Of a stretch of 64,000 nucleotides of DNA, positions 1-11,752 are shown piece by piece. The position numbers and the translations under genes were made by a program. The DNA is from Desulfuromonadaceae bacterium (GTDB taxonomy: Bacteria > Desulfobacterota > Desulfuromonadia > Geobacterales > Pseudopelobacteraceae): NCBI GenBank assembly GCA_028712075.1, contig JAQTQX010000019.1:25896-89895 (forward strand). Reading direction: 5' to 3'. Each line of letters starts with the position of its first letter. Position 1 is the stretch's first letter. The notes under the pieces were generated by a model. That model saw nothing but the letters and a program-made list of their open reading frames with translations. It was not told where the DNA came from and made no database searches.

Positions 1-1907
1 CTCTGTTCTGTGAGATCGATTATCCAAAGGGTTTTGATACAACGAACTCTACGTATAAAGATTTATTAACAACAGTTGCAGCCATTAAAAAAGACCTTAT
101 TGTCCGGCGTTATCAAGTCATGACTTACTGTGAGTATTACAAGGGAGACGAAGGAGGGATGCCTGAAATCCCACCAGATAAAAAGGATATTTGGTTAATC
201 CTAAAACTCAAGATTTCTGGAGCAGCATATAGTCTTATCAAATATATTGATTCTGCTCTGGATGCTATTCAATTAACCGAATCGCAAATAATGCTCGTGA
301 CTAGCATGGCTGGACAAGGCAAAACGAACTTCATTTGTGATTTTGCCGAGAATTTTTGTTCAAAGTTCGATCTGCCAGCAGTTCTTATTCCTGCAAGGGA
401 ATTAAATACAGTTCCAAATCAGAGCATTGTGCAATACCTGCTAAATAACAGATACTTGTCACAGCTTAAGGATAAGTTTGAACTATTTGGCTTTTTTGAG
501 CAAGTCGCGGTTTCATCAAACAAGCCTTTTGTAATTTTGGTTGATGGCTTGAATGAGATAAAAAACACAGAGTCATTCCGTACAGAAATCAACGATGTTC
601 TAACTATCGCCTCAGAGTACCAATCCATAAAATTCATATTGACCTGTAGAACAGAATTTTTTGAACAAAAATTTTCATATCTTCTGAACAGCAGTTATTC
701 AGAAAAAGTGTATCATTTAAAGAATTTAAAAGCTGAGATGGAGGATTTTCATCTTAACCAAGCACTTGCTGCATATTTCAATTTTTTCAATATCACTGCT
801 GATTTAAGTGAGAATGCTACGGATTTTCTTAAACGTGATCTTCTTCTACTTAGGATTTTCTGTGAAAATAGCCAAGGTTGTAATCTTGGAAAAATTGACG
901 ACATTTATAAGGAAGAATTATTTGAGAATTATCTCTTGAAGGTAATTGATGGATTTGGCAGAAACACGAAGAAAATGGCGTTGCCAACGTTGTTCAAGCT
1001 TGTTAATGCAATGATAGAGGATGGCAGCCTTGCGAGCATGTCTACTGAGAAATTTAGTAGTGCAGAGTTAGAAGTCATAGAGCACCTCGTCAACGACGAG
1101 ATAATATTGCGGCATGAGATGCCGGAAATAGGACTGATGGCAATCGGTCATGAGTACGTAAATTTCACATATGATGAGCTTAGAGACTTTATTATTGCCT
1201 ACTATCTAGTGATGGATGTGTCTGGCCGAGATTTTGTTGAGTATAAACGGCTTGTTTCAAGAATAACAAAAGGGCAAGCCTATGAAGGTATGACAAAATT
1301 TTCCTACATACTCTCAAGAAAACATCATGTGGATGCAGTATCATCATTTATTGAAGAGCAGGATGATTTTTTATATAACTACTCAATATTGTTGCATTCG
1401 TTTTCACCCAAATATCACATTCAAAAAGACATTCAAATTATTCAGAATATACTATCAAGTAATAAACATGCACTAATGGTCAGAAGAACGGCTGCATATT
1501 TATTTAACCGTGACAAATTCAATGAAATACTCAACCTAAATATTCTCGTAAACCACATCAACTCTCTTGGTGATGATGATTACGTTACCTTCCTAAGAAC
1601 AATCTTTGATACCTACGGATATAGTCATCGCGAAGACTCACAACCAGGTAAGCTAGTAAAAAGTTATACCAACGACGTGTACAAGGTGATTGATTCATTG
1701 AAGGATGATCTTTTCATTTTTCTTTTGCAGGCAGCATCATCAACACGAGGTGGTACATATTATGACTTCGTAAATGCCTGCGTTAATGCTTATAGAGATA
1801 ATAGAAAGCTGAATTGTTTTGAGTATGTAGCTAAAGCTAAGTCTAGGCAAGTTCAGCAGATTGTTGGTGAGATTATAACGCGAGGGGATTATGCGCAAAA
1901 AAAATAA
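1..1907 (+). CDS. NACHT-type STAND P-loop NTPase (NLR-like), possibly 5'-partial
   Basis: The reading frame is open from the window edge to 1907, with no stop between nt 3 and 1907. The first in-window ATG is at 120 and has no convincing RBS. Walker A is SMAGQGKTN and Walker B is FVILVDGLNE, followed by FILTCRTE, which together form the NACHT/STAND signature. The long helical C-terminal region has no recognisable repeats. Codon usage is AT-rich. Confidence 0.75.
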   Translation, partial: LFCEIDYPKGFDTTNSTYKDLLTTVAAIKKDLIVRRYQVMTYCEYYKGDEGGMPEIPPDKKDIWLILKLKISGAAYSLIKYIDSALDAIQLTESQIMLVTSMAGQGKTNFICDFAENFCSKFDLPAVLIPARELNTVPNQSIVQYLLNNRYLSQLKDKFELFGFFEQVAVSSNKPFVILVDGLNEIKNTESFRTEINDVLTIASEYQSIKFILTCRTEFFEQKFSYLLNSSYSEKVYHLKNLKAEMEDFHLNQALAAYFNFFNITADLSENATDFLKRDLLLLRIFCENSQGCNLGKIDDIYKEELFENYLLKVIDGFGRNTKKMALPTLFKLVNAMIEDGSLASMSTEKFSSAELEVIEHLVNDEIILRHEMPEIGLMAIGHEYVNFTYDELRDFIIAYYLVMDVSGRDFVEYKRLVSRITKGQAYEGMTKFSYILSRKHHVDAVSSFIEEQDDFLYNYSILLHSFSPKYHIQKDIQIIQNILSSNKHALMVRRTAAYLFNRDKFNEILNLNILVNHINSLGDDDYVTFLRTIFDTYGYSHREDSQPGKLVKSYTNDVYKVIDSLKDDLFIFLLQAASSTRGGTYYDFVNACVNAYRDNRKLNCFEYVAKAKSRQVQQIVGEIITRGDYAQKK

Positions 1908-2253
1908 TTCGCTTCTGCTTCATCTTGATTCGATTCCAACATTTGAAGAATTTTCTGCTCAGATGAAGGTCTCTCCCAATGGATTTGGGTCTATCGTCTT
2001 GCGCTATGTTTATAGAAATATTTTCATCGACTCTGACGACCTACTTGAAGAGTACAATAAATACTACTCGGTAGAGTATCAAACTTTTTGCGCCTTCCTA
2101 TCTAAAAAAATTGGAGTTGAAATAGCTCCGACTGAAATTGAGGCAAAACATATTTTACGCATAGATCCATGGTTCACGCTACTCGATCCAATATACGACA
2201 ATAATTTTTTAGAAATGATAATAGGCCATTTGGGAGTTCACCGTGAAAATTAA
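1891..2253 (+). CDS. hypothetical protein (120 aa), translationally coupled to the NTPase gene
   Basis: ATG 1891 overlaps the NTPase stop codon by 17 nt. It shares the AT-rich codon style of its neighbours. I recognise no domain. Confidence 0.5.
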   Translation: MRKKNNSLLLHLDSIPTFEEFSAQMKVSPNGFGSIVLRYVYRNIFIDSDDLLEEYNKYYSVEYQTFCAFLSKKIGVEIAPTEIEAKHILRIDPWFTLLDPIYDNNFLEMIIGHLGVHREN

Positions 2254-2254
2254 A

Positions 2255-2641
2255 ATGGATTTTGTGTCTAACAGCTCATCAACATCATTCATTTACATGG
2301 GCAATGGCAATCTCAGCAAAAAAGTTTTTTTTGCAGCTGTTGGAGTTGCTAAGGATAGTCCTTTGATTGAAATATTTGATAGTCTTTATTATGCAATAAC
2401 AAGTGCAATCGATTCAGGAGAAAAAATCATCAATGAGGCTCAACTTGAACAGAAAGTTGAATATCCCGATTTTACAAAAGAAGTAATTGAAAAAGCAAAA
2501 GACGCCTTGGCTCAAGGGAAAAATGTCGTAATTGCAAAATTAAGCAGTGATGGCGACATCGGTGAAAGCTTTCTGTGCATGGAGGCTTTTGAAATTCTTT
2601 CATCGGACTTTTATTTAAGCGCCCTTGACAATTATTGGTGA
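2255..2641 (+). CDS. hypothetical protein (~128 aa)
   Basis: ATG 2255 lies 1 nt after the previous stop; an alternative GTG at 2243 overlaps it. The N-terminus has the Ser-rich motif FVSNSSSTSF. I recognise no family. Confidence 0.5.
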   Translation: MDFVSNSSSTSFIYMGNGNLSKKVFFAAVGVAKDSPLIEIFDSLYYAITSAIDSGEKIINEAQLEQKVEYPDFTKEVIEKAKDALAQGKNVVIAKLSSDGDIGESFLCMEAFEILSSDFYLSALDNYW

Positions 2642-2644
2642 ATT

Positions 2645-3673
2645 ATGAAAATGCGGCGCTATCAAGAGTTAGGCTATACAACATTATTTAACGCCAATAC
2701 GGGATTTTTTGCCCGGATTGAGGACAAAGGAAAAGCCGAACCATTCTGGGCCCAAAATGGTCCTGAGTTACTTGATATTGCCATAACCAGTTGGTGTGAT
2801 AAAGGATGTGACTTCTGTTATCGAAGTGCTGGGACTGATGGTAAACATATGTCACTAGATGACTACCGGCGTCTGATCGATCTGGCGGCCTCTATAGGGG
2901 TATATCAGGTTGCTCTCGGAGGTGGTAATCCAAACCAACATCCCGATTTTATTGAGATGCTAGAATATACCCAACATAAAGGAATTGTTCCAAACTATAC
3001 GACGAATGGCAGAGGGCTCACTACTGAAATTATTAAAGCATCAAAAATGTATTGTGGAGCGGTCGCCGTTAGCGCATATGAACCATATATTGAGACTGCG
3101 ACCGCTATTAAAAATCTTCTTGAATCAAATATTAAAGTTAATGTTCATTTTGTCCTTAGTTCTAAAAGTATAGGATCTGCAATAGAGTGGTTGAATAATC
3201 CACCTAAAATAATTAATGGAATCAACGCACTAATTTTTTTAAATTACAAACCTACTGGAAGAACAGTATTTCCAGATCTGATGATTAAGGACAACCCACT
3301 ACTCAAGCAATTTTTCCGTACTGCAACATCAATTCGCTACCCTTTTAAAATTGGTTTTGACTCTTGTAGCATCAGCGGTGTGTTTTCGCATACAGACGCA
3401 AGCTCGTCAATGGTAGAAGCTTGTGACGCCGGAAGGTTTTCAATGTTTATATCTGAAGAAATGAAAGCCTATCCATGTTCATTTTACAAAGCTTTTTCCG
3501 ATGGAGAACCCATAACAGACAAATCAAGTTTCATAAGTATTTGGCAAAATTCGCATGATTTCAACGGAGCGAGGGAATACTTTCGCTCTGATAGCTGCAA
3601 ATGCGATATCAAAAGAAAGTGTTTAAATGGCTGTCCGCTGTTTACTGACCTTAAAATTTGTGGAAGAACCTGA
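2645..3673 (+). CDS. radical SAM enzyme with C-terminal SPASM/twitch-like Cys cluster
   Basis: CX3CX2C cluster WCDKGCDFCY. GGE-like SAM motif ALGGGNP. C-terminal ACDAGRFSMFISEEMKAYPC followed by CKCDIKRKCLNGCP, resembling an auxiliary Fe-S (SPASM) domain. Only a 3-nt gap separates it from the upstream ORF. Confidence 0.85.
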   Translation: MKMRRYQELGYTTLFNANTGFFARIEDKGKAEPFWAQNGPELLDIAITSWCDKGCDFCYRSAGTDGKHMSLDDYRRLIDLAASIGVYQVALGGGNPNQHPDFIEMLEYTQHKGIVPNYTTNGRGLTTEIIKASKMYCGAVAVSAYEPYIETATAIKNLLESNIKVNVHFVLSSKSIGSAIEWLNNPPKIINGINALIFLNYKPTGRTVFPDLMIKDNPLLKQFFRTATSIRYPFKIGFDSCSISGVFSHTDASSSMVEACDAGRFSMFISEEMKAYPCSFYKAFSDGEPITDKSSFISIWQNSHDFNGAREYFRSDSCKCDIKRKCLNGCPLFTDLKICGRT

Positions 3674-3749
3674 TGGATAATGGTGGCTTATAGCGTCTAT
3701 GATAGGACTGTTTTCCACTAACCATCTATTTCGATTAAGGAAAGATTCA

Positions 3750-4640
3750 ATGAATATGTTGATTCTCAACATCCCCACAGCCATATTCTTACTTTCTCTG
3801 CTGTTCCCTCTCGCTGCAATATTCTGGTTTCGCCATTCTTGCAATAAGCACCGCACACCATTAACTCAAGATCTCTTGCGTGGCCCAGGGGATTCAATCC
3901 GCAAGGTAATCCAAAAAGTAGATGAGGATATTGACACTTACCTTATGATGATAGTCGTACTTCCCGTTACATGCTACGCAGTGTATATCACAGACCGGTA
4001 TGCAGCCAAGGATCATGCTCATTGGGTTGTTTATGTTCTCATCCTAGTTCTATCCCTTATATATTTTACCTTAAAGCTTGCACAAAGCCTCAAACAGCGT
4101 AACAACCTGCGTCTCGGCCTGGATTGCGAAATAGCCGTCGGGCAGGAACTGAACCGACTGATGCTTGGCGGTCATCACGTCTATCATGACTTCCTCGCCG
4201 ATAAATTCAATATTGATCATGTTGTTGTCGGGCCGAACGGTGTCTTTGCAGTGGAAACCAAAGGTCGGGCAAAATCAGACAAAAATCGTGAAGCTGATGA
4301 TGTGAAGGTGATTTTTGATGGCGATGTCTTGAAGTTTCCTGAGTGGACAGAGCGTAACTATCTGCCCCAAGCTCGACGGCAGGCCGATTGGCTGGCAAAC
4401 TGGCTCAGTAGTGCAGTTGGAGAAAAGATACCGGTAAAACCTGTGTTGGTTATTACGGGCTGGTTTGTGACAATCCTGAAGCCGTGTGATGTGCTGCTGG
4501 CGAGTGGGAAAAACATTCACCTCGTTATTCCCAAGCAGCGGGAAAATACCCTTACAGGCGAGCAGATTACACGTATTGCCCACCAGCTTGAGCAAAAATG
4601 CCGTAACGTGGAGCCGTTGGCATACAAGAAGAATCCCTGA
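3750..4640 (+). CDS. membrane-anchored NERD-domain (nuclease-related) protein
   Basis: Three N-terminal hydrophobic segments precede the NERD core HVYHDFLADKFNIDHVVVGPNGVFAVETKG. An AAGGAAAG RBS lies upstream of ATG 3750. The open frame extends back to 3699. Confidence 0.8.
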   Translation: MNMLILNIPTAIFLLSLLFPLAAIFWFRHSCNKHRTPLTQDLLRGPGDSIRKVIQKVDEDIDTYLMMIVVLPVTCYAVYITDRYAAKDHAHWVVYVLILVLSLIYFTLKLAQSLKQRNNLRLGLDCEIAVGQELNRLMLGGHHVYHDFLADKFNIDHVVVGPNGVFAVETKGRAKSDKNREADDVKVIFDGDVLKFPEWTERNYLPQARRQADWLANWLSSAVGEKIPVKPVLVITGWFVTILKPCDVLLASGKNIHLVIPKQRENTLTGEQITRIAHQLEQKCRNVEPLAYKKNP

Positions 4641-4690
4641 AATCGGTTTAGGCTCCACAACAAGCAGAGAACAATAACGGAATTCCTGAG

Positions 4691-5665
4691 ATGATCGACA
4701 TCTACATCAAATCCTTCTCCACCCTCCGCTCCGACATCAGCCGCACCCGCTGGACGGCAGCAACCAAATTCCGCGCTCCGCACAAACCGCTCCTGCTGCT
4801 GGCCGTGATCGACCTCATCGCCCAGGGCATCATAAAAACCAACTTCATCGAATTCACCCCCGACCTGGGGGAACTGTTCACCATCTACTGGTCCCGCGTC
4901 ATGCCCCCTGATCAGCGCTCAAACATCATCCTCCCGTTTTATCATCTGGGTTCCGACAAATTCTGGCACCACATCCCGAAACCTGGCATGGAAGCAGTTC
5001 TTGCCGCCACCCGCCAGATCAGGGGCGTGGCCCAGTTGCAGGAAATCGTGCTGGGGGTGAAACTTGATGATGAACTGTACACACTGCTCTGCCGGGAAGA
5101 ATCGCGCAATATGCTGAGAACCACCCTGATTGAAACCTGTTTTGCGCCGGAACTGCATGCCGCTCTGGTCGAACAGGGGATCATCAACAAGGAAGCTTTC
5201 CAATACAGCCAGACGCTTCTGGAGCAATCGCGCCATCAGCGGGTTCAGGAAGGTGAGGGTGCAGAGCAATACGCCCCGGCGGTGCGGGATCAGGCGTTCA
5301 GGCGGGTCATTGTCAGCATGTATGATCATCGTTGCGCCGTGTGCGGCATCCGCATGCTGACCGCTGATTGCCATACCGTGGTTGACGCCGCCCATATCGT
5401 GCCGTGGAGCTTGACGCATAACGACACTGTCCAGAACGGCATGGCGCTCTGCCGCCTCTGCCATTGGACTTTTGATGAGGGCTTGATCACCGTTTCCGGT
5501 TCATACGCCGTACTGGTCTCAAAACAATTATCCGCGAACAACAATATCCCAAGCCACATGCAGACCCTCTCCGGTCGCCCCATCATCGGGCCCGCCGAAC
5601 AGTTGTTTTGGCCTGAACCGGACGCGCTTCACTGGCACCAACAGAAGATCTTCAGGAAATATTGA
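4691..5665 (+). CDS. HNH endonuclease (HNH_2-type) with uncharacterised ~200-aa N-terminal domain; type IV restriction-like
   Basis: C-terminal motif HRCAVCG..HTVVDAAHIVPW..NGMALCRLCHWTFDEG. The N-terminus reads FSTLRSDISRTRWTAATKFRAPHKPLLLLAVIDLI. Confidence 0.85.
   Translation: MIDIYIKSFSTLRSDISRTRWTAATKFRAPHKPLLLLAVIDLIAQGIIKTNFIEFTPDLGELFTIYWSRVMPPDQRSNIILPFYHLGSDKFWHHIPKPGMEAVLAATRQIRGVAQLQEIVLGVKLDDELYTLLCREESRNMLRTTLIETCFAPELHAALVEQGIINKEAFQYSQTLLEQSRHQRVQEGEGAEQYAPAVRDQAFRRVIVSMYDHRCAVCGIRMLTADCHTVVDAAHIVPWSLTHNDTVQNGMALCRLCHWTFDEGLITVSGSYAVLVSKQLSANNNIPSHMQTLSGRPIIGPAEQLFWPEPDALHWHQQKIFRKY
4713..4818 (+). repeat. Direct repeat copy A (5' end of the intact HNH gene)
   Basis: The core CTTCTCCACCCTCCGCTCCGACA.CAGCCGC.CCCGCTGGACGGCAGCAACCAAAT.CCGCGC.CCGCACAA.CCGCTCCTGCTGCTGGCCGT is shared with copies at 5811, 6661 and 8581. 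Confidence 0.9.
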
Positions 5666-5694
5666 TGTTCCTGATCGAATGGCAATCAGTGTCA

Positions 5695-5781
5695 GACCAT
5701 TTTCCTGACTTCAGGAAAATGGTCTTTGTGAAGCTTCCAACCATGAAATTTTGGGCCATTTTGTTGACGTTAACAAAATGG
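5695..5781. repeat. Two adjacent hairpins sharing a CCATTTT motif
   Basis: Hairpin 1 is GACCATTTTCCT (5695-5706) paired with AGGAAAATGGTC (5713-5724). Hairpin 2 is CCATTTTGTT (5756-5765) paired with AACAAAATGG (5772-5781). They lie between the HNH stop codon and repeat copy B. Confidence 0.8.
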
Positions 5782-5787
5782 TCGATC

Positions 5788-5897
5788 TGGCTCACCCACT
5801 ACCTGAAAACCTTCTCCACCCTCCGCTCCGACACCAGCCGCTCCAGCTGGACAGCCGCAACCAAATACCGTGCCCGCATAAGCCGCTCCTGGCTGAC
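5788..5897 (+). pseudogene. Orphan 5' fragment of an HNH-endonuclease paralogue (repeat copy B)
   Basis: It translates as WLTHYLKTFSTLRSDTSRSSWTAATKYRA. The start codon position is mutated and there is a 1-nt deletion relative to the other copies. Similarity ends near 5897, next to the PIN gene stop. Confidence 0.8.
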
Positions 5898-5902
5898 GGT
5901 AG

Positions 5903-6316
5903 TTACTCTTTCTGCTCCAGAAACTGCGCCGGAGTCATAATGGGAATGTTGCGATAGGAACCAAGGCCGAGCAGATGCGGATCTCCGGAGATAATGGCCG
6001 AGGCGTTGGCGGCGACGGCGCAGGCCAGGAATTTGTCGTCGTCAGGATCTTCGACAATTACGGCGACTGGTTCCTTCGGTTGCACAAAGCGTGACCAGGA
6101 AAAGACAAATTCAAGTATGTTTACTTGCAAGGTGGAGGAAAATTTGAGTTTAGGGTAGGCAACGACACGTTGAAGCTCTGCGTAGATGTCGTTGGTGATG
6201 CAGTTGACAACCTTCCGCTGCTCCATCAGACTCAGCACAGCTTCCGGCTTGCCATCCCAGCCGAAGGCCGAGATGAAAACATTGGTGTCGATGACTATTT
6301 TTGTGACCGCGCCCAC
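5903..6316 (-). CDS. PIN-domain toxin (type II TA system)
   Basis: KIVIDTNVFISAF, DPDDDKFLACAVAANA and IISGDPHLL are typical of PIN-family toxins. It has a GTG start and overlaps the upstream small ORF by 22 nt. Confidence 0.85.
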   Translation of the reverse strand: MGAVTKIVIDTNVFISAFGWDGKPEAVLSLMEQRKVVNCITNDIYAELQRVVAYPKLKFSSTLQVNILEFVFSWSRFVQPKEPVAVIVEDPDDDKFLACAVAANASAIISGDPHLLGLGSYRNIPIMTPAQFLEQKE

Positions 6317-6522
6317 AAGACCGCCTCGGCAGCTGTTTCAGGTGCCAGTTTTGACCGTTTAGCCGTCCGTGAGGCTTCGCGGGTAATTTCTGCCAGCGGG
6401 AGTGGTGTATAAAGTTTCTTTTTGAAGAGCTGGTCGATCAGTTTTTTCAGCCCTTCGGGAGGAAATTGAGCCAGAGTTTCCACAAGTTGGTTGTTATTCA
6501 CCTGAATAGTCGGATTGTTCAT
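6295..6522 (-). CDS. putative cognate antitoxin (75 aa, family not recognised)
   Basis: ATG 6522 is preceded by a GGGAG RBS. The ORF overlaps the PIN start, which is the classic antitoxin-toxin arrangement. The longer 139-aa ORF in the track runs into repeat copy C and is not credible. Confidence 0.6.
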   Translation of the reverse strand: MNNPTIQVNNNQLVETLAQFPPEGLKKLIDQLFKKKLYTPLPLAEITREASRTAKRSKLAPETAAEAVLWARSQK

Positions 6523-6639
6523 ACCTGCTCCCTTTAGTGCGTCAACCTCTGTCGATATCGCGGAACGACCACCCCCGAAAAGGGAGGACTTGCTACATAA
6601 CAAGTGTGTTGATCGTACTGAGAAAATATCATGTTCTAC

Positions 6640-6765
6640 AATTAAATCCATAAAAAACAACTTCTCCCCCCTCCGCTCCGACACCAGCCGCTCCCGCTGG
6701 ACGGCAGCAACCAATTACCGCGCCCCGCACAAGCCGCTCTTGCTGCTGGCCGTTATCGACCTCAT
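6640..6765 (+). pseudogene. Orphan 5' fragment of an HNH-endonuclease paralogue (repeat copy C)
   Basis: It translates as IKSIKNNFSPLRSDTSRSRWTAATNYRAPHKPLLLLAVIDLI and has no start codon. Similarity stops at 6765. Confidence 0.8.
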
Positions 6766-6777
6766 TTATTTTAAATC

Positions 6778-6816
6778 ACAATGCATATTTAAATTATAAC
6801 TTTAAATATGCATTGT
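6778..6816. repeat. Perfect 16-bp-arm palindrome (ACAATGCATATTTAAA-N7-TTTAAATATGCATTGT)
   Basis: Arms are at 6778-6793 and 6801-6816. It begins 12 nt after the breakpoint of repeat C and ends 1 nt before ATG 6818. Confidence 0.9.
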
Positions 6817-6817
6817 T

Positions 6818-8044
6818 ATGCCGTCCTGTTCATGCTACTCTCCTCTCATGACCTACATTCCCCGTGACATCGAAACACGACTGGTGCGACTGCTCGCATC
6901 TTCTCCCTGCGTAGCAGTTACCGGCCCGCGCCAGGCCGGCAAGTCAACCCTGCTCAGGCACTGCCTTCCAGACTATCAATACGTTACCCTGGATGACCCG
7001 TTTTACCGGGAACAGGCCCATGCCGACCCGCTGCTCTTTCTGGACTCACTGGGAGAACGGTCTATCATCGACGAAATTCAGCTTGCGCCAAGTCTGCTCT
7101 CCTATGTCAAAATCCGGGTGGATAACCGGCGCAGTGTCAAAGGACAGTATGTCTTTACCGGCTCGCAGCAGTTCGGTCTGATCAAGAACCTGAGCGATTC
7201 GCTGGCCGGACGGATTGCTCTGCTGGAGCTGCTTCCGTTGTCGGTGGCCGAGAAACGGCGGTATCTGCCGCTACCGGATACCATCAGCCTGTTCAGGCAT
7301 GCGGCCCTGAGCGGCTGCTATCCCGAGCTGGTCGTGGATGAGGCCGTCGATCTGCCGTCGTGGTACGCCTCCTATCTGCAGACCTATCTGGAGCGCGATA
7401 TCCGCACACTCTACAATATCGGCGATTTGCGTGACTTCCAGCGGTTTGTGCGCCTGCTCGCGGCCCGCTGCGGTCAACAATTGAACATGTCCGATTTCAG
7501 CCGCGATCTGGGCATCTCCGTCCCGACCATTAAAAGCTGGCTCTCGATCCTGGAGGCCAGCCGGGTGGTCTATCTGCTGCCGCCGTACTATGCCAACATG
7601 GGCAAACGCATCACCAAGTCGCCCAAGGTCTATTTCATCGATATCGGTCTGGCCTGCAACCTGGCCGGGGTGCGGGATGAAGCACATCTCTTCAACGGTC
7701 CGATGGCTGGTCATCTGTTCGAAAACTTCTGCATACAGGAAACGGTCAAGTTTTTTCTGGGGAAGGGTGTACAGCCGCCGTTGTACTACATCAGGACCGG
7801 CAACGGCCTGGAGGTTGACCTGCTCGTCGAACCGTCAGCCGGGGTTCTGATTCCTGTGGAGATCAAACTTGGCAAAACTCCAACTCCGCAGCAGGCCCGG
7901 ACTCTGGCTTCCTTCCGTGCATCGTTCGCCCAGCTTGATCCGAAGCCTGGTCTACTGCTCTCACTTGCCGATCAGACCCGTTCGCTGACCCGCGAAGTTA
8001 CGGCGGTTACGCTGGATGATTATTTCGGACGGTTGGAAGGCTAA
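6818..8044 (+). CDS. AAA-family ATPase with DUF4143-like C-terminal domain
   Basis: Walker A is VAVTGPRQAGKSTLL and Walker B-like is SIIDEIQ. The C-terminal region (KVYFIDIGL..., LFENF) is typical of AAA_14/DUF4143 ATPases. An alternative start exists at 6848. Confidence 0.8.
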   Translation: MPSCSCYSPLMTYIPRDIETRLVRLLASSPCVAVTGPRQAGKSTLLRHCLPDYQYVTLDDPFYREQAHADPLLFLDSLGERSIIDEIQLAPSLLSYVKIRVDNRRSVKGQYVFTGSQQFGLIKNLSDSLAGRIALLELLPLSVAEKRRYLPLPDTISLFRHAALSGCYPELVVDEAVDLPSWYASYLQTYLERDIRTLYNIGDLRDFQRFVRLLAARCGQQLNMSDFSRDLGISVPTIKSWLSILEASRVVYLLPPYYANMGKRITKSPKVYFIDIGLACNLAGVRDEAHLFNGPMAGHLFENFCIQETVKFFLGKGVQPPLYYIRTGNGLEVDLLVEPSAGVLIPVEIKLGKTPTPQQARTLASFRASFAQLDPKPGLLLSLADQTRSLTREVTAVTLDDYFGRLEG

Positions 8045-8070
8045 GTACACAGAGGCGGGGTCTGCCATGA

Positions 8071-8172
8071 CATGAGACAATTATAGGAGAAATCAAAGGC
8101 GGAGACAAGTCAACCCAGCACAAGGATATTGAAACGGCAAAAGCTTACTGGAAGCGACAAAGGGAGAAATAG
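8071..8172 (+). pseudogene. C-terminal remnant of a HigB/RelE-type addiction-module killer protein
   Basis: It translates as ..IIGEIKGGDKSTQHKDIETAKAYWKRQREK*. GGDKSTQ.KDI is the conserved C-terminus of this toxin family. Only about 33 codons remain, directly upstream of the antidote gene. Confidence 0.6.
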
Positions 8173-8174
8173 CA

Positions 8175-8486
8175 ATGGCAAGAAAAACCGGCAATTATCA
8201 TTCGGAACATATTGAGTGGTTAAAAGACCCGGAGAATGCAGCCGGATACCTTAATGCAGTCATTGAAGAGGAAGATAAAGACGCTTTGCTTTTGGCGCTT
8301 CGCAATATCGCTGGAGCGGAAGGCGGCATGGCAGCAGTCGCAGAAAAGGCGCATCTTAAGCGGGAGAGTCTGTACCGCATGCTTTCCCCCAGTGGCAATC
8401 CGGCCCTGTCAAACCTGTTTTCCATACTTCATGGCATGGGATTGAAAATGACTATTCAGCCGGATAAGGCGGTAACGGCAACTTGA
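8175..8486 (+). CDS. HigA-type addiction-module antidote protein (HTH)
   Basis: LKDPENAAGYLNAVIEEEDKDALLLALRNIA..AEKAHLKRESLYRMLSPSGNP.LSNL..IL.GMGLKMTI matches the antidote family usually paired with the GGDKSTQ toxin. Confidence 0.8.
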   Translation: MARKTGNYHSEHIEWLKDPENAAGYLNAVIEEEDKDALLLALRNIAGAEGGMAAVAEKAHLKRESLYRMLSPSGNPALSNLFSILHGMGLKMTIQPDKAVTAT

Positions 8487-8562
8487 CGCCGCTGGCAAAA
8501 CCTCCGGGATCAGGTTGGACTTTCAGACAATTGAATATCCATTACTACAACGGTAATCCGAT

Positions 8563-8674
8563 ATGCTCACCAACTACCTGCAAACCTTCTCCACCCTCCG
8601 CTCCGGCACCAGCCGCTCCCGCTGGACGGCAGCAACCAAATACCGCGCCCCGCACAAACCGCTGTTTCTGCTGG
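8563..8674 (+). pseudogene. Orphan 5' fragment of an HNH-endonuclease paralogue (repeat copy D)
   Basis: The ATG is retained. It translates as MLTNYLQTFSTLRSGTSRSRWTAATKYRAPHKPLFLLG and then diverges. About 20 nt upstream of the ATG also resembles the leader of the intact gene. Confidence 0.8.
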
Positions 8675-8755
8675 GGTGTGTTGGGGAATACACCTTTAAA
8701 AACTGGCCTGATTCGGCAGGTCGTGTGATCTGGTGCTTAAAGGAGGAGTACCGAT

Positions 8756-8989
8756 ATGACAGCAAAAGAAATTATCAAACTGTCCATCTTTGAAGGAAAA
8801 CAAATCAGAAAAACCGTTCATGCTGAAGAATGGTATTTTTCCGTTATTGATGTTGTCGCGATATTATCTGAATCACCAACTTCTCGCCAATACTGGGGGA
8901 AAGTCAAGAGGAGGGAATTTACTGACTTTCAGTTGTCCCCAGTTTGGGTACAACTGAAGCTTGAAGCCGACGATGGGGAAGCTGTATAG
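8756..8989 (+). CDS. Bro-N-like domain protein, probably C-terminally truncated (77 aa)
   Basis: A strong AAAGGAGG RBS precedes the start. FEGKQIRKTVHAEEWYFSVIDVVAILSES..SRQYW resembles Bro-N/antirepressor N-terminal domains. The protein ends abruptly after LKLEADDG. Confidence 0.5.
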   Translation: MTAKEIIKLSIFEGKQIRKTVHAEEWYFSVIDVVAILSESPTSRQYWGKVKRREFTDFQLSPVWVQLKLEADDGEAV

Positions 8990-9066
8990 GGGTCGTATCT
9001 CAACTTCGTACGTCTCAAAAGAATATTCCATGGCCAACCTAACCGACTCCCCCCCTAACAATATTT

Positions 9067-9095
9067 CGGGCGGAACCAGTAACTGGTTCCGCCCG
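9067..9095. terminator. 13-bp GC-rich hairpin downstream of the minus-strand PHP-like gene
   Basis: CGGGCGGAACCAG-TAA-CTGGTTCCGCCCG. The flanking U-tract is weak on both strands. Confidence 0.4.
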
Positions 9096-9127
9096 AATTG
9101 TCTGGTGATGCCCGGATTGAATGTTGA

Positions 9128-10975
9128 TTACTTGTCTTTTTTCTCTACTACTTTCACAACAACCGGATTCGAGTAGAACCAGAGATCGTCCCACGCCATG
9201 TCAGCATTGCTGGTGCCGGGAGTATTGATAAGCGGGCTGCCGTTTGCATCGGTACCATAGACAATTTTAGTTCCGGTGGAGTCCATCTGCTTCACGTCGT
9301 AGCCGAGGTTGGTGCCGCGAATACGGAAGAACATATTATTCTGCACATTCGGTACGTCGAAGGTCATGGTGGTGTAGCCGTCATGACTTTTCCATGAAGT
9401 GGCATCAAACGTCTTGACGATACTGGCAACCGTCGGATCGATTGTTTTGAACTCCGGATTCGGTGTTACGCCATCAGCAAGAAATTTGCCGGCCCTGGTC
9501 GGATTGATGCGGCCCTGAATCAGCTGAACATGGTGAACAGCCGGAGCTTTGCAGATATAGCCGGCAGAAGCGTTGACACCGGCCTGGCAGTTGTTGCCGG
9601 ATGGAGTTTTGAAGGCGATTTTGACAGTAGCGTTCTGTCCTTTTCTAACGAACAGGGTTTCACCCATGGTCGCAGTTTCTTCATCGTGATGATTCCCGGC
9701 CTGCACTTTAAAATCAAGTTCGTTGATCAGGTCACCATGTACGGAGAAGGCGTTGCCGGAACGGAGACCATTGACAACATCTTCCTGGGTATACACATTC
9801 TCATGATCGTGATCTTTTTCACTCTTTTCGTCGTGCTCGCTGTCCTTGTCCTTATGATCGTTATGGCTGTTCTGTTTTACCTTCACGTAGGTCTTCAGGT
9901 ATTCACCCGGCCAGAAGTCTGCACCGGCATCATTGTGAAAATCTGAACTGGCGAAGTTGTAAAACCTGCGGCCATCAGCCAGCAGGTTGTCCCAGAGGCC
10001 GCCGACAGTGGCGATGTAGTATCCCGCGCCGCCGTAGGTACCGCCACCACAAGCTCCTGCACCGAATCCGCCACGGCCTGTTTCTTTCTCATGGCCGGGG
10101 ATCCCTTCAAAACCGAAGGCAACGGTCGGTCCGTTGTCGTTGATATCGCGGAAGGCTGCGATGTTCCAGGCGCCACCGGTAAGGCCGCAGCCGGCCCGTT
10201 CAACATGAGCCGGAACCATGTAGCCGGTTGTCGGGTAGTTGGCCTGCATCCACTTGACGCCGTCGATTGTTTTGTTGTGCAATTTGTTTAAGCCGAGTGT
10301 AGAAGAGTAGTCAGGTGCAGAGGCGGTGTATTCTGAACTCTGTTTTTTTCCGGTCCACCCCATTTTGTCAGCGGTGTTGGTAGTCAACGTACCGTCAGAG
10401 TCGGAGTTGTCGAAGCGGTATTCGAATTCGGCAATCGGCAGTGCGTTCGCAGCGACAATGCCGGTGCTGCAATGCTCGTGCCCCGGCGGGTTCCACTCCA
10501 TCCCGGACATAGCCAATTTGTTCGGATAGTTGGCACGAATAGTATTGATCCAGTCAAATGCTCCCATGTATGCCGGTCCGGCGTAGCCCGGAATGTCAGA
10601 AGTGCTGATAAGGGTCTGCCAACGCCACATTTTGCCGGCATCACCGACTGCAGGGTTCGGTGAATAGGTGCTCCAGGCATTATTAAAGTTGTCCTTGCCG
10701 CTGGCTCCGCCATGTTCGCTGTTGGCCTGGAAATCGACTCCGAAGCGGTACCCCTGAGGAATTACCCCTCTCCTGTAGAGCCCGGCCGGTTCTTTCCACG
10801 GAAACGTGGCTATTACACCGGGAGCCGTCAGGTCATTCATCGGGTAGGAGCCATCGGTGTATGTTGTGTGCTGATGGAAATCACCGGTCATCCACTTCTC
10901 GCCGGCCAGGGCGCTTCCAGCCGACAACATTGCTACTGTGAGAACTGCTGCGCATACTTTGCTGTTTGCTTTCAT
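9128..10975 (-). CDS. secreted PHP-like metal-dependent phosphoesterase with His/Asp/Lys-rich insert
   Basis: Signal peptide MKANSKVCAAVLTVAMLSAGSALA. The N-terminal GDFHQHTTYTDGS resembles the PHP HxH motif, and further His motifs follow (NSEHGG, GHEHC, PAHVE, SSDFHND). It carries the insert HNDHKDKDSEHDEKSEKDHDHEN. Confidence 0.65.
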   Translation of the reverse strand: MKANSKVCAAVLTVAMLSAGSALAGEKWMTGDFHQHTTYTDGSYPMNDLTAPGVIATFPWKEPAGLYRRGVIPQGYRFGVDFQANSEHGGASGKDNFNNAWSTYSPNPAVGDAGKMWRWQTLISTSDIPGYAGPAYMGAFDWINTIRANYPNKLAMSGMEWNPPGHEHCSTGIVAANALPIAEFEYRFDNSDSDGTLTTNTADKMGWTGKKQSSEYTASAPDYSSTLGLNKLHNKTIDGVKWMQANYPTTGYMVPAHVERAGCGLTGGAWNIAAFRDINDNGPTVAFGFEGIPGHEKETGRGGFGAGACGGGTYGGAGYYIATVGGLWDNLLADGRRFYNFASSDFHNDAGADFWPGEYLKTYVKVKQNSHNDHKDKDSEHDEKSEKDHDHENVYTQEDVVNGLRSGNAFSVHGDLINELDFKVQAGNHHDEETATMGETLFVRKGQNATVKIAFKTPSGNNCQAGVNASAGYICKAPAVHHVQLIQGRINPTRAGKFLADGVTPNPEFKTIDPTVASIVKTFDATSWKSHDGYTTMTFDVPNVQNNMFFRIRGTNLGYDVKQMDSTGTKIVYGTDANGSPLINTPGTSNADMAWDDLWFYSNPVVVKVVEKKDK

Positions 10976-11263
10976 CGTTAATTTCTCCTTTTTTATTTGT
11001 TATTCTGTAAGTCGAAGTAACCGTAGCATACAATTGTTACAGCGGTATGCCATGTTTGAAAATGTTGGGTAACAATATCGAATGCCCATAAAACACCGTA
11101 TATAGGCACTTGGCGGGCTTTCACGGTCAGCGGTTATCTGGAAACAGGGATTGAATCTCCCCCGTAATTGTGGACAGTCCGAAAAGCTGCTACAAACAAG
11201 CGCGAAGGACGGTTATGGTATCGAAAAGAAAGGTATGAATGGCATCAAAGGAGACGGGACCTA

Positions 11264-11752
11264 ATGGCTGATCAATCAATAACACTCTGGATCATCGGGG
11301 CAGTCCTGACCTTCACCGGTCTTGCGGGGCTGTTACTGCCGCTGGTACCCGGAGCACCGCTGTTGTTTCTGGGATTACTCCTTGGTGCGTGGGCAGAAGG
11401 TTTCCGCTACATAGGTGTGTGGTCTCTACTGCTCCTGGCAGGAATGGCCGCATTGACCTATGTGGTGGAGTTTGCGGCATCAATCCTGGGCGTTAAAAAG
11501 TATGGCGGGTCGCGCAGAGCCATGGCAGGTGCCGCTCTGGGCGGTGTGGCAGGGATGTTTCTCGGAATTCCGGGAATTCTGCTCGGGCCGTTTGTGGGGG
11601 CGGTTATCGGAGAACTGTCGTTACAGCGCAGCCTGGATGAGGCATCCAGGGCTGGCTTTGGAACCGTGGTGGGTCTGGCTATAGGTGTAGCCGGCAAACT
11701 TGCCATCGGTATCGCCATGATTGGTATATTTCTGCTGATCCGCTTGACCTGA
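11264..11752 (+). CDS. DUF456-family membrane protein
   Basis: ATG 11264 has an AAGGAG RBS about 12 nt upstream. LLPLVPGAPLLFLGLL and the Gly-rich TM segments are typical of DUF456. Confidence 0.75.
   Translation: MADQSITLWIIGAVLTFTGLAGLLLPLVPGAPLLFLGLLLGAWAEGFRYIGVWSLLLLAGMAALTYVVEFAASILGVKKYGGSRRAMAGAALGGVAGMFLGIPGILLGPFVGAVIGELSLQRSLDEASRAGFGTVVGLAIGVAGKLAIGIAMIGIFLLIRLT

What the first reader, a model, noticed from the sequence alone, without database searches (positions are those of the whole stretch)
4691..8674. The same ~105-nt gene 5' end occurs four times: one intact HNH gene plus three orphan fragments that delimit unrelated cassettes
SEEN:
- The segment CTTCTCCACCCTCCGCTCCGACACCAGCCGCTCCCGCTGGACGGCAGCAACCAAATACCGCGCCCCGCACAAGCCGCT... 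occurs on the + strand four times.
- The copies are at 4713-4818 (start of the intact HNH gene), 5811-5897, 6661-6765 and 8581-8674.
- By eye the copies differ by only a few substitutions, plus one 1-nt deletion in copy B, over the ~75-nt core.
- Copies B and D share a different N-terminus (W/MLT.YL.TFSTLRS) from copy A (MIDIYIKSFSTLRS).
- The leader ~20 nt upstream of the ATG is also similar in A and D. The fragments are therefore remnants of at least two paralogues, not one duplicated segment.
- All three fragments break off within a ~25-nt window, just after the codons for APHKPLLLL.
- Unrelated modules lie between and after the copies. A PIN toxin with antitoxin (minus strand) lies between B and C. 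An AAA/DUF4143 ATPase with orphan HigA lies between C and D. A Bro-N fragment follows D.

INFERENCE:
- The clustered breakpoints and DNA-level conservation suggest this segment acts as a recombination or insertion hotspot. It could be an att-like target of cassette-type elements, or a site for repeated replacement of the 3' part of tandem paralogues.
- The geometry is unusual for classical 5'-end-targeting integrases, because the 5' fragments lie downstream of the intact gene.
Basis: partly seen in the sequence, partly recalled or inferred. Interest (0 to 1): 0.75.

Follow-up and report, generated by a model that had tools for sequence, protein, structure and literature searches.

The report
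Restriction-gene start stubs scaffolding toxin-antitoxin cassettes
The first ~100 bases of a DNA-restriction gene occur four times in a row, once as the live gene and three times as dead stubs each fused to an unrelated toxin-antitoxin or ATPase module, and related genomes show modules gained, lost or swapped exactly at these stubs, most likely by ordinary homologous recombination rather than a dedicated cassette enzyme.

Summary
Four direct copies of the 5' end of an SBD-HNH (ScoMcrA-like type IV restriction) gene lie at 4691, ~5783, ~6639 and 8563 (0 expected by chance). Two independent assemblies support the order.

Copy A is the intact gene. B, C and D are dead stubs. Each starts at or just upstream of the start codon and ends at gene nt ~105, 128 and 112.

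The stubs are fused by different illegitimate junctions to:
- a PIN toxin-antitoxin pair;
- a DUF4143 ATPase with a truncated higB and higA;
- a truncated phage-type gene.

The pattern recurs in at least nine other Desulfuromonadales loci. There are 11 independent junction classes, all within gene nt 50-181 of 975 (P~5e-10).

Related genomes differ by whole modules bounded by stubs, and two stubs are chimeric with different crossover points. I found no recombinase, no fixed crossover and no attC-like fold.

Best reading: a hypervariable defence/toxin-antitoxin hotspot between NERD and DUF456. Stubs arise by insertion or truncation at the gene start and then act as portable homology for RecA-type deletion, insertion and exchange. 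The closest known analogue is "insertion with long target duplication" of restriction-modification genes. The strong 5' bias is unexplained. Interest is moderate.

The parts
3699..4640 (+). NERD-domain membrane protein. Conserved left border of the variable region.
   Evidence: Pfam NERD, 58 bits. 87% DNA identity to L046, where it is followed 167 nt later by DUF456.
4691..5665 (+). Intact SBD-HNH (ScoMcrA-like type IV restriction) gene. Copy A of the repeat is its leader plus first ~43 codons (about 4669-4818).
   Evidence: Pfam HNH_2, 46.5 bits. Residues 28-149 match the solved sulfur-binding domain 8h0l, E 1e-15. NCBIfam PT-DNA_restrict scores 143 bits, below the cutoff of 180.
5694..5781 (+). 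Two strong hairpins after the HNH stop (5694-5725 and 5756-5781) sharing the stem CCATTTT/AAAATGG. The first is the gene's own terminator-like hairpin. The second abuts stub B.
   Evidence: DNA fold z = -6.5. The motif occurs only twice in the window (0.03 expected). One copy follows homologous genes in L029-L032.
5783..5897 (+). Stub B: gene nt -4 to ~105 of a B/D-type paralogue. Start codon destroyed, 1-nt deletion. It ends 5 nt before the PIN stop codon.
   Evidence: The same stub-PIN junction occurs in L008, L009, L052 and L053.
5903..6522 (-). Cassette 1: PIN toxin (5903-6316) with an overlapping 75-aa upstream partner (6295-6522).
   Evidence: Pfam PIN_3, 77.5 bits; TIGR00305. The partner has no family hit. 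Window 5790-6543 is ~93.5% identical to L008 and L009.
6628..6765 (+). Stub C: unambiguous over 6661-6765 (gene nt 24-128). The profile HMM extends it to about nt -3, with a diverged first 20 nt and a short insertion.
   Evidence: The upstream part is not significant alone. The left flank matches L009 stub 2 and the right flank matches L009 stub 3.
6778..8044 (+). Cassette 2a: palindromic operator-like site (6778-6816) and AAA_14/DUF4143 ATPase gene (6818-8044).
   Evidence: Pfam DUF4143, 159 bits; AAA_14, 84.5 bits. The unit 6780-8045 occurs without any stub in L046-L049 at 82-84% identity.
8071..8486 (+). Cassette 2b: C-terminal remnant of a higB-type toxin (8071-8172) and an intact HI1420-type antidote (8175-8486).
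   Evidence: phrog_3445 'toxin', profile positions 77-100 of 103, E 7e-4. Pfam dnstrm_HI1420, 65.8 bits.
8499..8674 (+). Stub D: leader (-64) to gene nt 112, with an intact ATG. The open frame runs 76 codons into unrelated sequence.
   Evidence: 82% identity over 176 nt to the leader plus start of the intact homologue in L016. ORF 8563-8793.
8756..8989 (+). Truncated 5' fragment of a ~270-aa phage-type gene.
   Evidence: phrog_15286, positions 6-76 of 274, E 7.5e-11. No Pfam hit.
11265..11752 (+). DUF456 gene. Conserved right border of the variable region.
   Evidence: Pfam DUF456, 121 bits. 78% DNA identity to L046, where it lies next to NERD.

Best explanation
**What it is.** The repeat is the start of SBD-HNH type IV restriction genes: a few to ~64 nt of leader plus the first 35-43 codons. 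Copy A belongs to a live gene. B, C and D are dead 5' stubs. Each stub is fused at its own illegitimate junction to an unrelated selfish or defence module:
- a PIN toxin-antitoxin pair;
- a DUF4143 ATPase that has overwritten most of a higB toxin next to higA;
- a truncated phage-type gene.

The whole 6.6-kb block sits in a variable slot between two conserved genes, NERD and DUF456.

**How it works.**
- Step 1 (inferred). Stubs are created when a module lands in, or a deletion ends in, the first ~50-180 nt of such a gene. This often leaves direct duplications of the gene start on both sides of the module, as in 'insertion with long target duplication'.
- Step 2 (supported by comparison, mechanism inferred). 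Once two or more stubs lie in direct orientation, they act as 40-130-nt patches of portable homology.
  - RecA-type recombination between any two stubs deletes the modules between them.
  - The excised circle or incoming DNA from a relative can re-insert (Campbell-type) or swap modules at any other stub or at the start of an intact gene.
- Step 3 (inferred). Only short stubs are seen. Longer repeats next to an intact copy would be lost quickly by the same recombination, and/or longer SBD fragments are selected against.

No dedicated recombinase is involved.
For: **Anatomy**
- Four copies, 0 expected by chance.
- Stub extents and junctions.
- Module identities.
- The SBD-HNH assignment.

**Recurrence**
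- Stubs next to toxin-antitoxin modules occur in L002, L003, L006, L008/L053, L009/L052, L015, L019/L021, L023 and L026.
- There are 11 junction classes, all at gene nt 50-181 of 975 (P = 4.9e-10 under a uniform null).
- Every stub starts at or upstream of the ATG.
- Only two 3' fragments were seen.

**Stub-bounded polymorphism and chimeras**
- Window stub C combines the left flank of L009 stub 2 with the right flank of L009 stub 3. MazEF+ParE/RelB is absent in the window.
- L003 stub 2 is a divergent paralogue's 5' end joined at nt ~85 to the C-type stub plus the ATPase module, which is 98.7% identical to the window.
- L008/L053 and L009/L052 diverge exactly at stub 1.
- L006_3 and L026 share the same stub-cargo junction but have different left neighbours.
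- Inferred crossover intervals differ (nt 24-65 versus 85-128), as expected for homologous rather than site-specific recombination.

**No site-specific machinery or structure**.

**Not intrinsic to the cargo or to one DNA sequence**
- The cargo gene exists without a stub elsewhere.
- A paralogue with no detectable DNA similarity to the repeat also occurs as a ~183-nt 5' stub (L006 5965-6150). So the phenomenon is not tied to one DNA sequence.

**Variable slot.** L046 has NERD and DUF456 167 nt apart.

**Precedent.** Restriction-modification genes, including type IV and mcrA/HNH genes, are found flanked by long, variable direct target duplications without mobility genes. Those repeats often span a translation start (PMC2853133).
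Against: - The direction of each event (deletion or insertion) is not determined. No excised circle or recA dependence was shown.
- No 'empty site' with a single uninterrupted B/D-type gene in the same context was found for the PIN or ATPase modules.
- In L009 the two stubs flanking MazEF/RelBE differ in their first ~20 nt. They are therefore not a simple target duplication of each other.
- The survivorship argument for short stubs does not explain two things. It does not explain why 5' stubs outnumber 3' remnants so strongly. It also does not explain why several stubs begin within a few nt of the start codon.
- Homology patches of 40-100 nt at ~90% identity are poor substrates for RecA.
- Most sequences are short-read metagenome assemblies.
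- My DNA patterns required gene nt 32-65, so copies lacking that part could not be found by the collection scans.
Confidence: 0.55

Rival explanations
1. Passive decay. The locus once held several tandem full-length SBD-HNH paralogues. Each was separately truncated by unrelated insertions or deletions. The stubs are inert scars with no role in later rearrangements.
For: - Stubs are pseudogenes: B has lost its ATG and reading frame, and C has lost a recognisable start.
- At least two paralogue types are present.
- The locus is littered with other truncated genes: the higB remnant, the phrog_15286 fragment and the DUF4143 remnant in L009.
- Junctions are illegitimate and all different.
Against: - All 11 independent junction classes fall in the first 181 of 975 nt (P~5e-10).
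- 3' remnants are nearly absent.
- Several differences between genomes start or end exactly inside stubs, and two stubs are chimeric.
- In L009/L008 the stubs are ~89% identical to the window's gene. The resident intact paralogue there is alignable at only 70-73% and in patches, so those stubs are not decayed copies of the neighbouring gene.
Confidence: 0.2
2. Pure insertion with long target duplication. Each module entered a single resident gene start by one event that itself duplicated ~70-190 nt of the target (leader plus first codons). This leaves the downstream copy, and initially the gene, intact. There is no later stub-to-stub recombination. Selection for keeping the restriction gene functional explains the 5' location.
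For: - Modules are flanked by overlapping direct copies of the gene start: PIN by -4..105 and ~-3/24..128; the ATPase module by ..128 and -64..112.
- There are no mobility genes.
Against: - C and D are 95% alike over nt 25-100 (4 mismatches in 76) but unalike upstream of nt ~24. L009 stubs 2 and 3 show the same upstream mismatch. The flanking copies are therefore not plain duplicates.
- L009 stub 1 reaches nt 112 while stub 2 stops at nt 65. A simple duplication cannot produce this; recombination between copies is needed.
- The L003 chimera joins two different paralogue types.
- The downstream-most copy (D) is not attached to a gene body.
Confidence: 0.15
3. A site-specific cassette system. 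The conserved core of the repeat (about gene nt 24-63) is an attachment site recognised by a recombinase encoded elsewhere. That enzyme inserts and excises toxin-antitoxin or defence cassettes, as integrons or accreted integrative elements do.
For: - All stubs found share nt ~37-50, and most share nt 24-63. That stretch is identical in copies from several genera.
- The arrays resemble chromosomal integron arrays rich in toxin-antitoxin cassettes (general knowledge).
- Third-codon-position identity among intact genes is somewhat raised in codons 1-31: 0.63-0.76 in the overlapping 13-codon windows, peaking in codons 7-19, against a gene mean of 0.63.
Against: - The shared core is partly an ascertainment effect of my search patterns.
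- There is no recombinase near any array.
- Stub ends fall at 11 positions and inferred crossovers lie in different intervals.
- The repeat has no hairpin or imperfect palindrome.
- A paralogue with no detectable DNA similarity to the repeat shows the same kind of stub.
- Intact homologues in nine loci have attracted no cassettes.
Confidence: 0.07

Closest known systems
Insertion with long target duplication of restriction-modification gene complexes (Nobusato et al. 2000; Furuta, Abe & Kobayashi 2010, PMC2853133)
   Same: - Selfish or defence modules lie between long (>30 bp, variable length) direct repeats derived from the target.
- No transposase or integrase is present.
- The repeats often span a translation start.
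- Type IV and mcrA-like HNH genes are involved.
- The repeats are proposed to allow amplification and release.
   Different: - Here the target is the restriction gene's own start, and the inserted modules are toxin-antitoxin or ATPase genes rather than restriction-modification systems.
- The events are serial, giving an array of three or more stubs.
- The flanking copies are not plain duplicates of each other.
- Clean empty sites were found only for one module (MazEF/RelBE) and for the whole block (L046).
Orphan toxin/immunity modules downstream of cdiA and rhs genes (polymorphic toxin loci; from my own knowledge, not checked in a paper here)
   Same: An intact gene is followed, in the same orientation, by an array of fragments. 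Each fragment repeats a short conserved piece of the main gene and is followed by a different module. Homologous recombination at the repeated piece deletes or swaps modules.
   Different: - There the repeated piece is internal and recombination creates a new in-frame toxin fusion.
- Here the repeated piece is the gene start, and the downstream modules are separate genes (one on the opposite strand). No new functional fusion results.
Chromosomal integron cassette arrays (attC repeats, IntI)
   Same: Tandem small cassettes, many of them toxin-antitoxin pairs, are separated by ~100-nt direct repeats. Cassette content differs between relatives.
   Different: - No intI was found.
- The repeat is coding sequence with no attC-like imperfect palindrome.
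- Cassette boundaries are not at a fixed point.
Tandem accretion of integrative elements at gene ends (integrase-less cis-mobilisable elements; tRNA-end repeats delimiting cargo islands; from my own knowledge)
   Same: Repeated fragments of one gene end delimit cargo modules, some lacking their own integrase.
   Different: - Those repeats are att sites with a defined crossover.
- Orphan fragments lie on the side predicted by site-specific integration, and an integrase is present in at least one unit. None of these holds here.
Cassette-like variation of restriction genes between conserved framework genes (E. coli immigration control region; Sibley & Raleigh 2004, cited in PMC2853133)
   Same: A slot between conserved flanking genes (here NERD and DUF456) holds different restriction or defence genes in different strains.
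   Different: That variation is explained by homologous recombination in the conserved flanks. Here there are additional internal homology patches, the stubs.

Membership tests
SBD-HNH phosphorothioate-dependent type IV restriction endonuclease (ScoMcrA/SprMcrA-like) | N-terminal sulfur-binding domain (SBD) | tested here: met
   Residues 28-149 align to the solved SBD 8h0l (SBDHga1), E 9.8e-16. Precomputed Pfam PF26340 DNA-SBD_ScoMcrA is listed as 'weak'.
SBD-HNH phosphorothioate-dependent type IV restriction endonuclease (ScoMcrA/SprMcrA-like) | C-terminal HNH nuclease domain | tested here: met
   Pfam HNH_2 scores 46.5 bits against a cutoff of 21. Similar to TagI (6ghs) and the HNH endonuclease 6yex.
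SBD-HNH phosphorothioate-dependent type IV restriction endonuclease (ScoMcrA/SprMcrA-like) | Reaches the NCBIfam NF045808 (PT-DNA_restrict) curated cutoff | tested here: not met
   143.1 bits against a cutoff of 180, although aligned over residues 17-322. It is a relative, not a certified member of that model.
SBD-HNH phosphorothioate-dependent type IV restriction endonuclease (ScoMcrA/SprMcrA-like) | Cleaves phosphorothioate-modified DNA | not testable with these tools
   Needs biochemistry.
Insertion with long target duplication (Kobayashi group criteria) | Inserted genes flanked by direct repeats >30 bp derived from the target, insert <20 kb | tested here: met
   PIN module flanked by stubs B and C, overlapping over nt 24-105. 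ATPase module flanked by C and D, overlapping over nt 24-112.
Insertion with long target duplication (Kobayashi group criteria) | No transposase or integrase in or next to the insert | tested here: met
   None within ~11 kb upstream (precomputed Pfam) or among the ten ORFs scanned, nine of which lie in the ~15 kb downstream. The modules themselves are toxin-antitoxin and ATPase genes.
Insertion with long target duplication (Kobayashi group criteria) | A related genome has an empty site with one copy of the repeat | tested here: inconclusive
   - Met for MazEF+ParE/RelB: the window has one hybrid stub where L009 has two.
- Met for the whole block: L046 has NERD and DUF456 adjacent.
- No empty site was found for the PIN or ATPase modules.
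Insertion with long target duplication (Kobayashi group criteria) | The two flanking repeats are duplicates of one another along their whole overlap | tested here: not met
   C and D are 95% alike over nt 25-100 but unalike upstream of nt ~24. L009 stubs 2 and 3 also differ in their first ~20 nt.
Integron | intI tyrosine recombinase adjacent to the array | tested here: not met
   Not among the annotated or scanned genes around the window array or the L003, L006, L008 and L009 arrays.
Integron | attC sites: imperfect palindromes that fold as single strands | tested here: not met
   Both strands of stubs C and D fold no better than shuffles (z -0.48 to -1.78).
Site-specific integrative element accretion (att repeats) | Identical crossover point or fixed repeat boundaries in all copies | tested here: not met
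   3' ends fall at nt 50, 63, 65, 78, 85, 89, ~108, 112, 119, 128 and ~181. Inferred crossovers lie in nt 24-65 and nt 85-128.
Polymorphic-toxin-type orphan array (cdiA/rhs) | The repeated fragment is fused in frame to an alternative C-terminal domain, followed by an immunity gene | tested here: not met
   Stub B abuts the 3' end of a minus-strand gene. Stub C is followed by an operator and a gene with its own start. Stub D runs into 41 codons with no family hit.

The most novel reading that the evidence does not exclude
The start of SBD-HNH genes is a preferred landing and exchange platform for small selfish or defence modules across Desulfuromonadales. It would be a recombinase-free, homology-driven counterpart of an integron.

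In this reading a ~100-nt gene-start stub travels with each module and lets it hop between any loci carrying such a gene. Alternatively, an unrecognised targeted process acts at this gene start, for example breaks made near the start of the gene by the neighbouring NERD or helicase nuclease.

Either version would explain why 11 of 11 independent junctions lie in the first 181 nt and why nearly only 5' stubs survive.
Probability: 0.2. Interest if true: 0.7.

Novelty: new variant of a known kind. Interest (0 to 1): 0.45.

Why it matters
Toxin-antitoxin and defence modules are highly mobile, yet most carry no mobility genes, so how they move is largely unexplained.

This locus and its relatives give a concrete, testable picture. 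Short stubs of one defence gene's start act as shared homology that lets neighbouring modules be deleted, inserted and swapped. The process builds and reshuffles a defence/toxin-antitoxin island between two conserved genes.

If the strong bias to the gene start reflects a mechanism rather than survivorship, it would point to a new way in which defence islands grow.

It is also a practical warning. Such stubs break short-read assemblies at each repeat. Gene callers annotate them as small 'HNH' or hypothetical genes.

Tried and rejected
- **RNA element or riboswitch in the repeat:** no Rfam match at E<=1 over 3500-9500.
- **attC-like or other structured recombination site:** folds are not better than shuffles.
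- **Promoter inside the stubs driving cargo:** the consensus scan finds no sigma-70-like site at any stub. The leader is conserved between D, L016 and L006_1, but no convincing -35/-10 pair could be read, so I make no promoter claim. Seven of eight first cargo genes are co-oriented with their stub (p=0.035), which is only suggestive.
- **DNA-level constraint on the repeat in intact genes:** third-position identity in the 13-codon windows covering codons 1-31 is 0.63-0.76, peaking at 0.76 in codons 7-19, against a mean of 0.63. The HNH motif region is as high. This is not distinctive.
- **Concerted evolution of stubs within a genome:** pairwise mismatch counts over nt 25-100 show no clustering by genome.
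- **Plasmid origin:** no similarity to 72,556 plasmids.
- **Circular cassettes:** the two Logan unitigs end in the 27 nt shared by stubs C and D, which is shorter than what I take to be the Logan k-1 overlap (k=31, from memory). They are assembly-graph branch points, not evidence of circles.
- **The stub travels with the DUF4143 gene everywhere:** false. L046-L049 have the gene and its operator without a stub.
- **Bro-N identity of ORF 8756-8989:** no Pfam hit, and no similarity to the Bro-N protein next to the homologous gene in L037.
- **Geobacter genome papers describing 'multicopy nucleotide sequences':** the G. bemidjiensis paper, the only one opened, has no passage mentioning toxin or endonuclease.

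Full report
**1. The observation**

The repeat is real.
- The repeat finder reports one family of four direct copies starting at 4688, 5785, 6635 and 8560.
- A 31-nt degenerate core occurs four times on the + strand, against 0.00 expected.
- A profile HMM built from nine intact homologous gene starts finds exactly these four copies in the 64 kb window.

In gene coordinates:
- Copy A is the start of an intact 324-codon gene (4691-5665).
- B (~5783-5897) covers nt -4 to ~105. It has lost its ATG and has a 1-nt deletion.
- C is unambiguous over 6661-6765 (nt 24-128). Its extension to the start codon is seen by the profile HMM but is not significant alone.
- D (8499-8674) covers nt -64 to 112 with an intact ATG.

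Two independent assemblies confirm the order of the pieces.
- Window 1-6944 is identical to the end of NCBI MAG contig JAQTXP010000037.1.
- Two Logan unitigs of SRR22315508 equal window 5638-6711 and 6685-8636.

**2. The gene and the modules**

The gene is an SBD-HNH enzyme.
- Pfam HNH_2 scores 46.5 bits.
- Residues 28-149 match a solved sulfur-binding domain (8h0l, E 1e-15).
- NCBIfam 'phosphorothioated DNA-binding restriction endonuclease' scores 143 bits, below its cutoff of 180.
- The repeat therefore encodes the N-terminal extension and the first helix (APHKPLLLL) of the SBD.

The modules between and after the stubs are as follows.
- Between B and C: a minus-strand PIN_3 toxin with an overlapping 75-aa partner.
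- Between C and D:
  - a palindromic operator plus an AAA_14/DUF4143 ATPase gene;
  - the last 24 codons of a higB-type toxin (phrog_3445, E 7e-4);
  - an intact HI1420-type antidote.
- After D: the first 76 of ~274 codons of a phage-type protein (phrog_15286). Pfam does not call it Bro-N.

No recombinase lies within ~11 kb upstream or ~15 kb downstream, where the genes are core (ThiC, TGT, succinate dehydrogenase).

A related contig (L046) has the NERD gene (87% DNA identity) and the DUF456 gene (78%) only 167 nt apart. In the window they are 6.6 kb apart. The whole block is thus the content of a variable slot between two conserved genes.

**3. The same thing elsewhere**

Exact-pattern scans of one genome per species and of JGI metagenomes returned 5 and 21 loci. 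Thirteen carry real copies, all from Geobacter/Pelobacter/Desulfuromonadaceae-type contigs.

Only two of these copies are shown to be intact genes (L005, L016). A third (L004) is cut by its contig end, so its state is unknown. The rest are stubs next to small modules, mostly type II toxin-antitoxin pairs: MazEF, ParE/RelB, HigBA and PIN.

Aligning 23 copies gives 11 independent stub-to-cargo junction classes, at gene nt 50, 63, 65, 78, 85, 89, ~108, 112, 119, 128 and ~181.
- Given only that nt 1-50 must be present for detection, the chance that all 11 fall at or before nt 181 of 975 is 5e-10.
- Every stub begins at or upstream of the start codon.
- 3' remnants are nearly absent.
- A paralogue with no detectable DNA similarity to the repeat also appears as a ~183-nt 5' stub (L006 5965-6150).
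- By contrast, nine loci holding intact close homologues (78-94% protein identity) have no extra stubs.

**4. Evidence that the stubs are recombination joints**

(a) The unit 'stub B + PIN pair' (window 5790-6543) is ~93.5% identical in L008 and L009, with the same stub-PIN junction but different left neighbours.

(b) In L009 (= L052, 99.97%) the order is:
- stub 1 (to nt 112);
- PIN pair;
- stub 2 (nt 24-65);
- MazEF;
- ParE/RelB;
- stub 3 (to nt 128);
- remnant of the DUF4143 gene;
- bioF.

The window has a single stub C. Its left flank matches that of stub 2 (86.7%) and its right flank matches that of stub 3 (83.5%), and the two toxin-antitoxin pairs are missing. That is the structure expected from recombination between stubs 2 and 3 within nt 24-65, or from the reverse insertion.

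(c) In L003 the DUF4143-higA module is 98.7% identical to the window starting at gene nt ~85. Upstream of that point the stub is the frameshifted 5' end of a much more divergent paralogue. This implies a crossover in nt 85-128.

(d) Haplotypes L008/L053 and L009/L052 are 96-97% identical from stub 1 (nt ~13) rightward to bioF/bioH and unrelated to its left.

(e) L006 and L026 share a stub-cargo junction (nt 89) but differ upstream.

The crossover intervals differ, the stub ends differ, and the stub has no fold (z -0.5 to -1.8) and no Rfam match. The DUF4143 gene with its operator also occurs without any stub in L046-L049. These facts favour homologous and illegitimate recombination over a site-specific system.

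**5. Mechanism proposed**

Shown:
- the anatomy;
- the recurrence;
- the non-random position of junctions;
- stub-bounded differences between related genomes;
- chimeric stubs;
- the absence of recombinase genes and of structure.

Inferred:
- (i) Stubs arise when a module lands in, or a deletion ends in, the first 50-180 nt of an SBD-HNH gene. Direct copies of the gene start are often left on both sides.
- (ii) Stubs in direct orientation then serve as 40-130-nt homology patches for RecA-type deletion. Through excised circles or incoming DNA, they also allow Campbell-type insertion or exchange at any other stub or intact gene start.
- (iii) Only short stubs persist. Longer repeats are lost faster and/or longer SBD fragments are harmful.

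On this reading B, C and D need not be three separate decayed genes. They can be one or two gene starts multiplied by serial events, with the intact gene A (a different allele type) lying upstream in the same slot.

What the model does not explain well:
- the near-absence of 3' remnants;
- the fact that several stubs begin within a few nt of the start codon;
- how the founding junctions arose.

**6. Comparison with known systems**

The nearest description is 'insertion with long target duplication' of restriction-modification genes.
- Modules without mobility genes are flanked by long, variable direct repeats of the target.
- The repeats often span a translation start.
- It is seen for all restriction types, including an mcrA/HNH gene, and the repeats are proposed to permit amplification and release (PMC2853133).

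This case differs in several respects.
- The target is the restriction gene's own start.
- The cargo is toxin-antitoxin and ATPase genes.
- The events are serial.
- The flanking copies are not plain duplicates of each other.

It works somewhat like orphan toxin arrays downstream of cdiA/rhs, where a repeated conserved piece allows module swapping. It fails the defining in-frame fusion. It resembles an integron array in appearance but fails both defining features, intI and attC.

**7. Verdict**

The 'att-like site of cassette-type elements' is not.

The finding is a new variant of a known kind, of moderate interest. The unexplained and statistically strong 5' bias is the part most worth following up.

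Limits:
- Nearly all sequences are short-read metagenome assemblies.
- My collection scans required gene nt 32-65, so stubs lacking that stretch were invisible.
- The direction of every event is inferred.

Noticed in passing
L028 8217-10975; L029-L032; L003 3533-5436; L015 288-2254; L037 1510-7700; window 3699-5665: The SBD-HNH gene is usually the second gene of a pair.
- In the loci where I read or have coordinates for the junction (L028-L032, L003, L037), its ATG overlaps the stop of the upstream gene (ATGA, or TAATG in L003). In L015 the two genes overlap in the same way by coordinates, but the junction was not read.
- That upstream gene is a 595-aa NERD-UvrD helicase in L028-L032, L003 and L015. 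In L037 it is a 1739-aa protein with DEAD and UvrD helicase domains but no NERD hit.
- In other loci it follows a NERD membrane protein (window, L004).

This looks like a two-gene NERD/helicase + SBD-HNH defence unit.
   Followed up: partly
window 1-3800 (and L001/L050 upstream): A low-GC stretch (33-40% against ~50-58% nearby) holds several defence-like genes:
- the 3' part of an 885-aa SMEK_N/NACHT-like ATPase;
- two small ORFs;
- a radical SAM protein.

Further upstream on the MAG contig are DUF1016, a BglII-type endonuclease, PDDEXK_3, an HI1420 antidote and Abi_2. This is a defence island.
   Followed up: partly
window 5694-5725 and 5756-5781: Two perfect hairpins with the same stem base (CCATTTT...AAAATGG) lie 59 nt apart after the HNH stop (fold z -6.5). 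Homologous genes in L029-L032 have only one. The second hairpin ends 4 nt before stub B, as if a second copy of the gene's 3' end had been joined to the stub.
   Followed up: partly
window 8071-8172: The DUF4143 ATPase gene ends 26 nt before the last 24 codons of a higB-type toxin. The 'orphan' HigA is thus the survivor of a toxin-antitoxin pair whose toxin was overwritten.
   Followed up: yes
L006 6150-6512: A ~164-nt unit (GGAATTCGGGGGACATCTTAC... plus leader plus stub) is tandemly duplicated. Its left end abuts two different stubs, that of the DNA-unrelated SBD paralogue (5965-6150) and L006_2. This suggests a small mobile or duplicating segment with a fixed left end.
   Followed up: no
L046 3832-7197 compared with window 3699-11752: In L046 the order is NERD - DUF456 - DMT - DUF4143 ATPase, at 87%, 78% and 84% DNA identity to the window's genes. 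The ATPase inside the window's array may therefore be the relocated local orthologue from about 1 kb downstream, rather than a foreign gene.
   Followed up: partly
L037 7839-8075 (also L038-L041): A DndE-family gene (phosphorothioation system component) sits directly downstream of a 90%-identical SBD-HNH homologue. This is an odd neighbour for an enzyme family that cuts phosphorothioated DNA.
   Followed up: no
L035 11697-16573: A Tn7-like set (TnsA-like/rve, TniB, TniQ) lies ~700 nt downstream of another intact homologue. No stub is present there.
   Followed up: no
L004 (VFKX01000004.1): An 8.1-kb contig binned as 'Candidatus Falkowbacteria' carries a NERD gene (47% protein identity to the window's) followed by the repeat at 94% identity. 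It is probably a mis-binned Desulfuromonadales contig.
   Followed up: no
window 6944: The NCBI MAG contig JAQTXP010000037.1 ends at window position 6944, inside the ATPase gene and not at a repeat. The window continues seamlessly, so it comes from a different, longer assembly of the same or a near-identical organism.
   Followed up: partly
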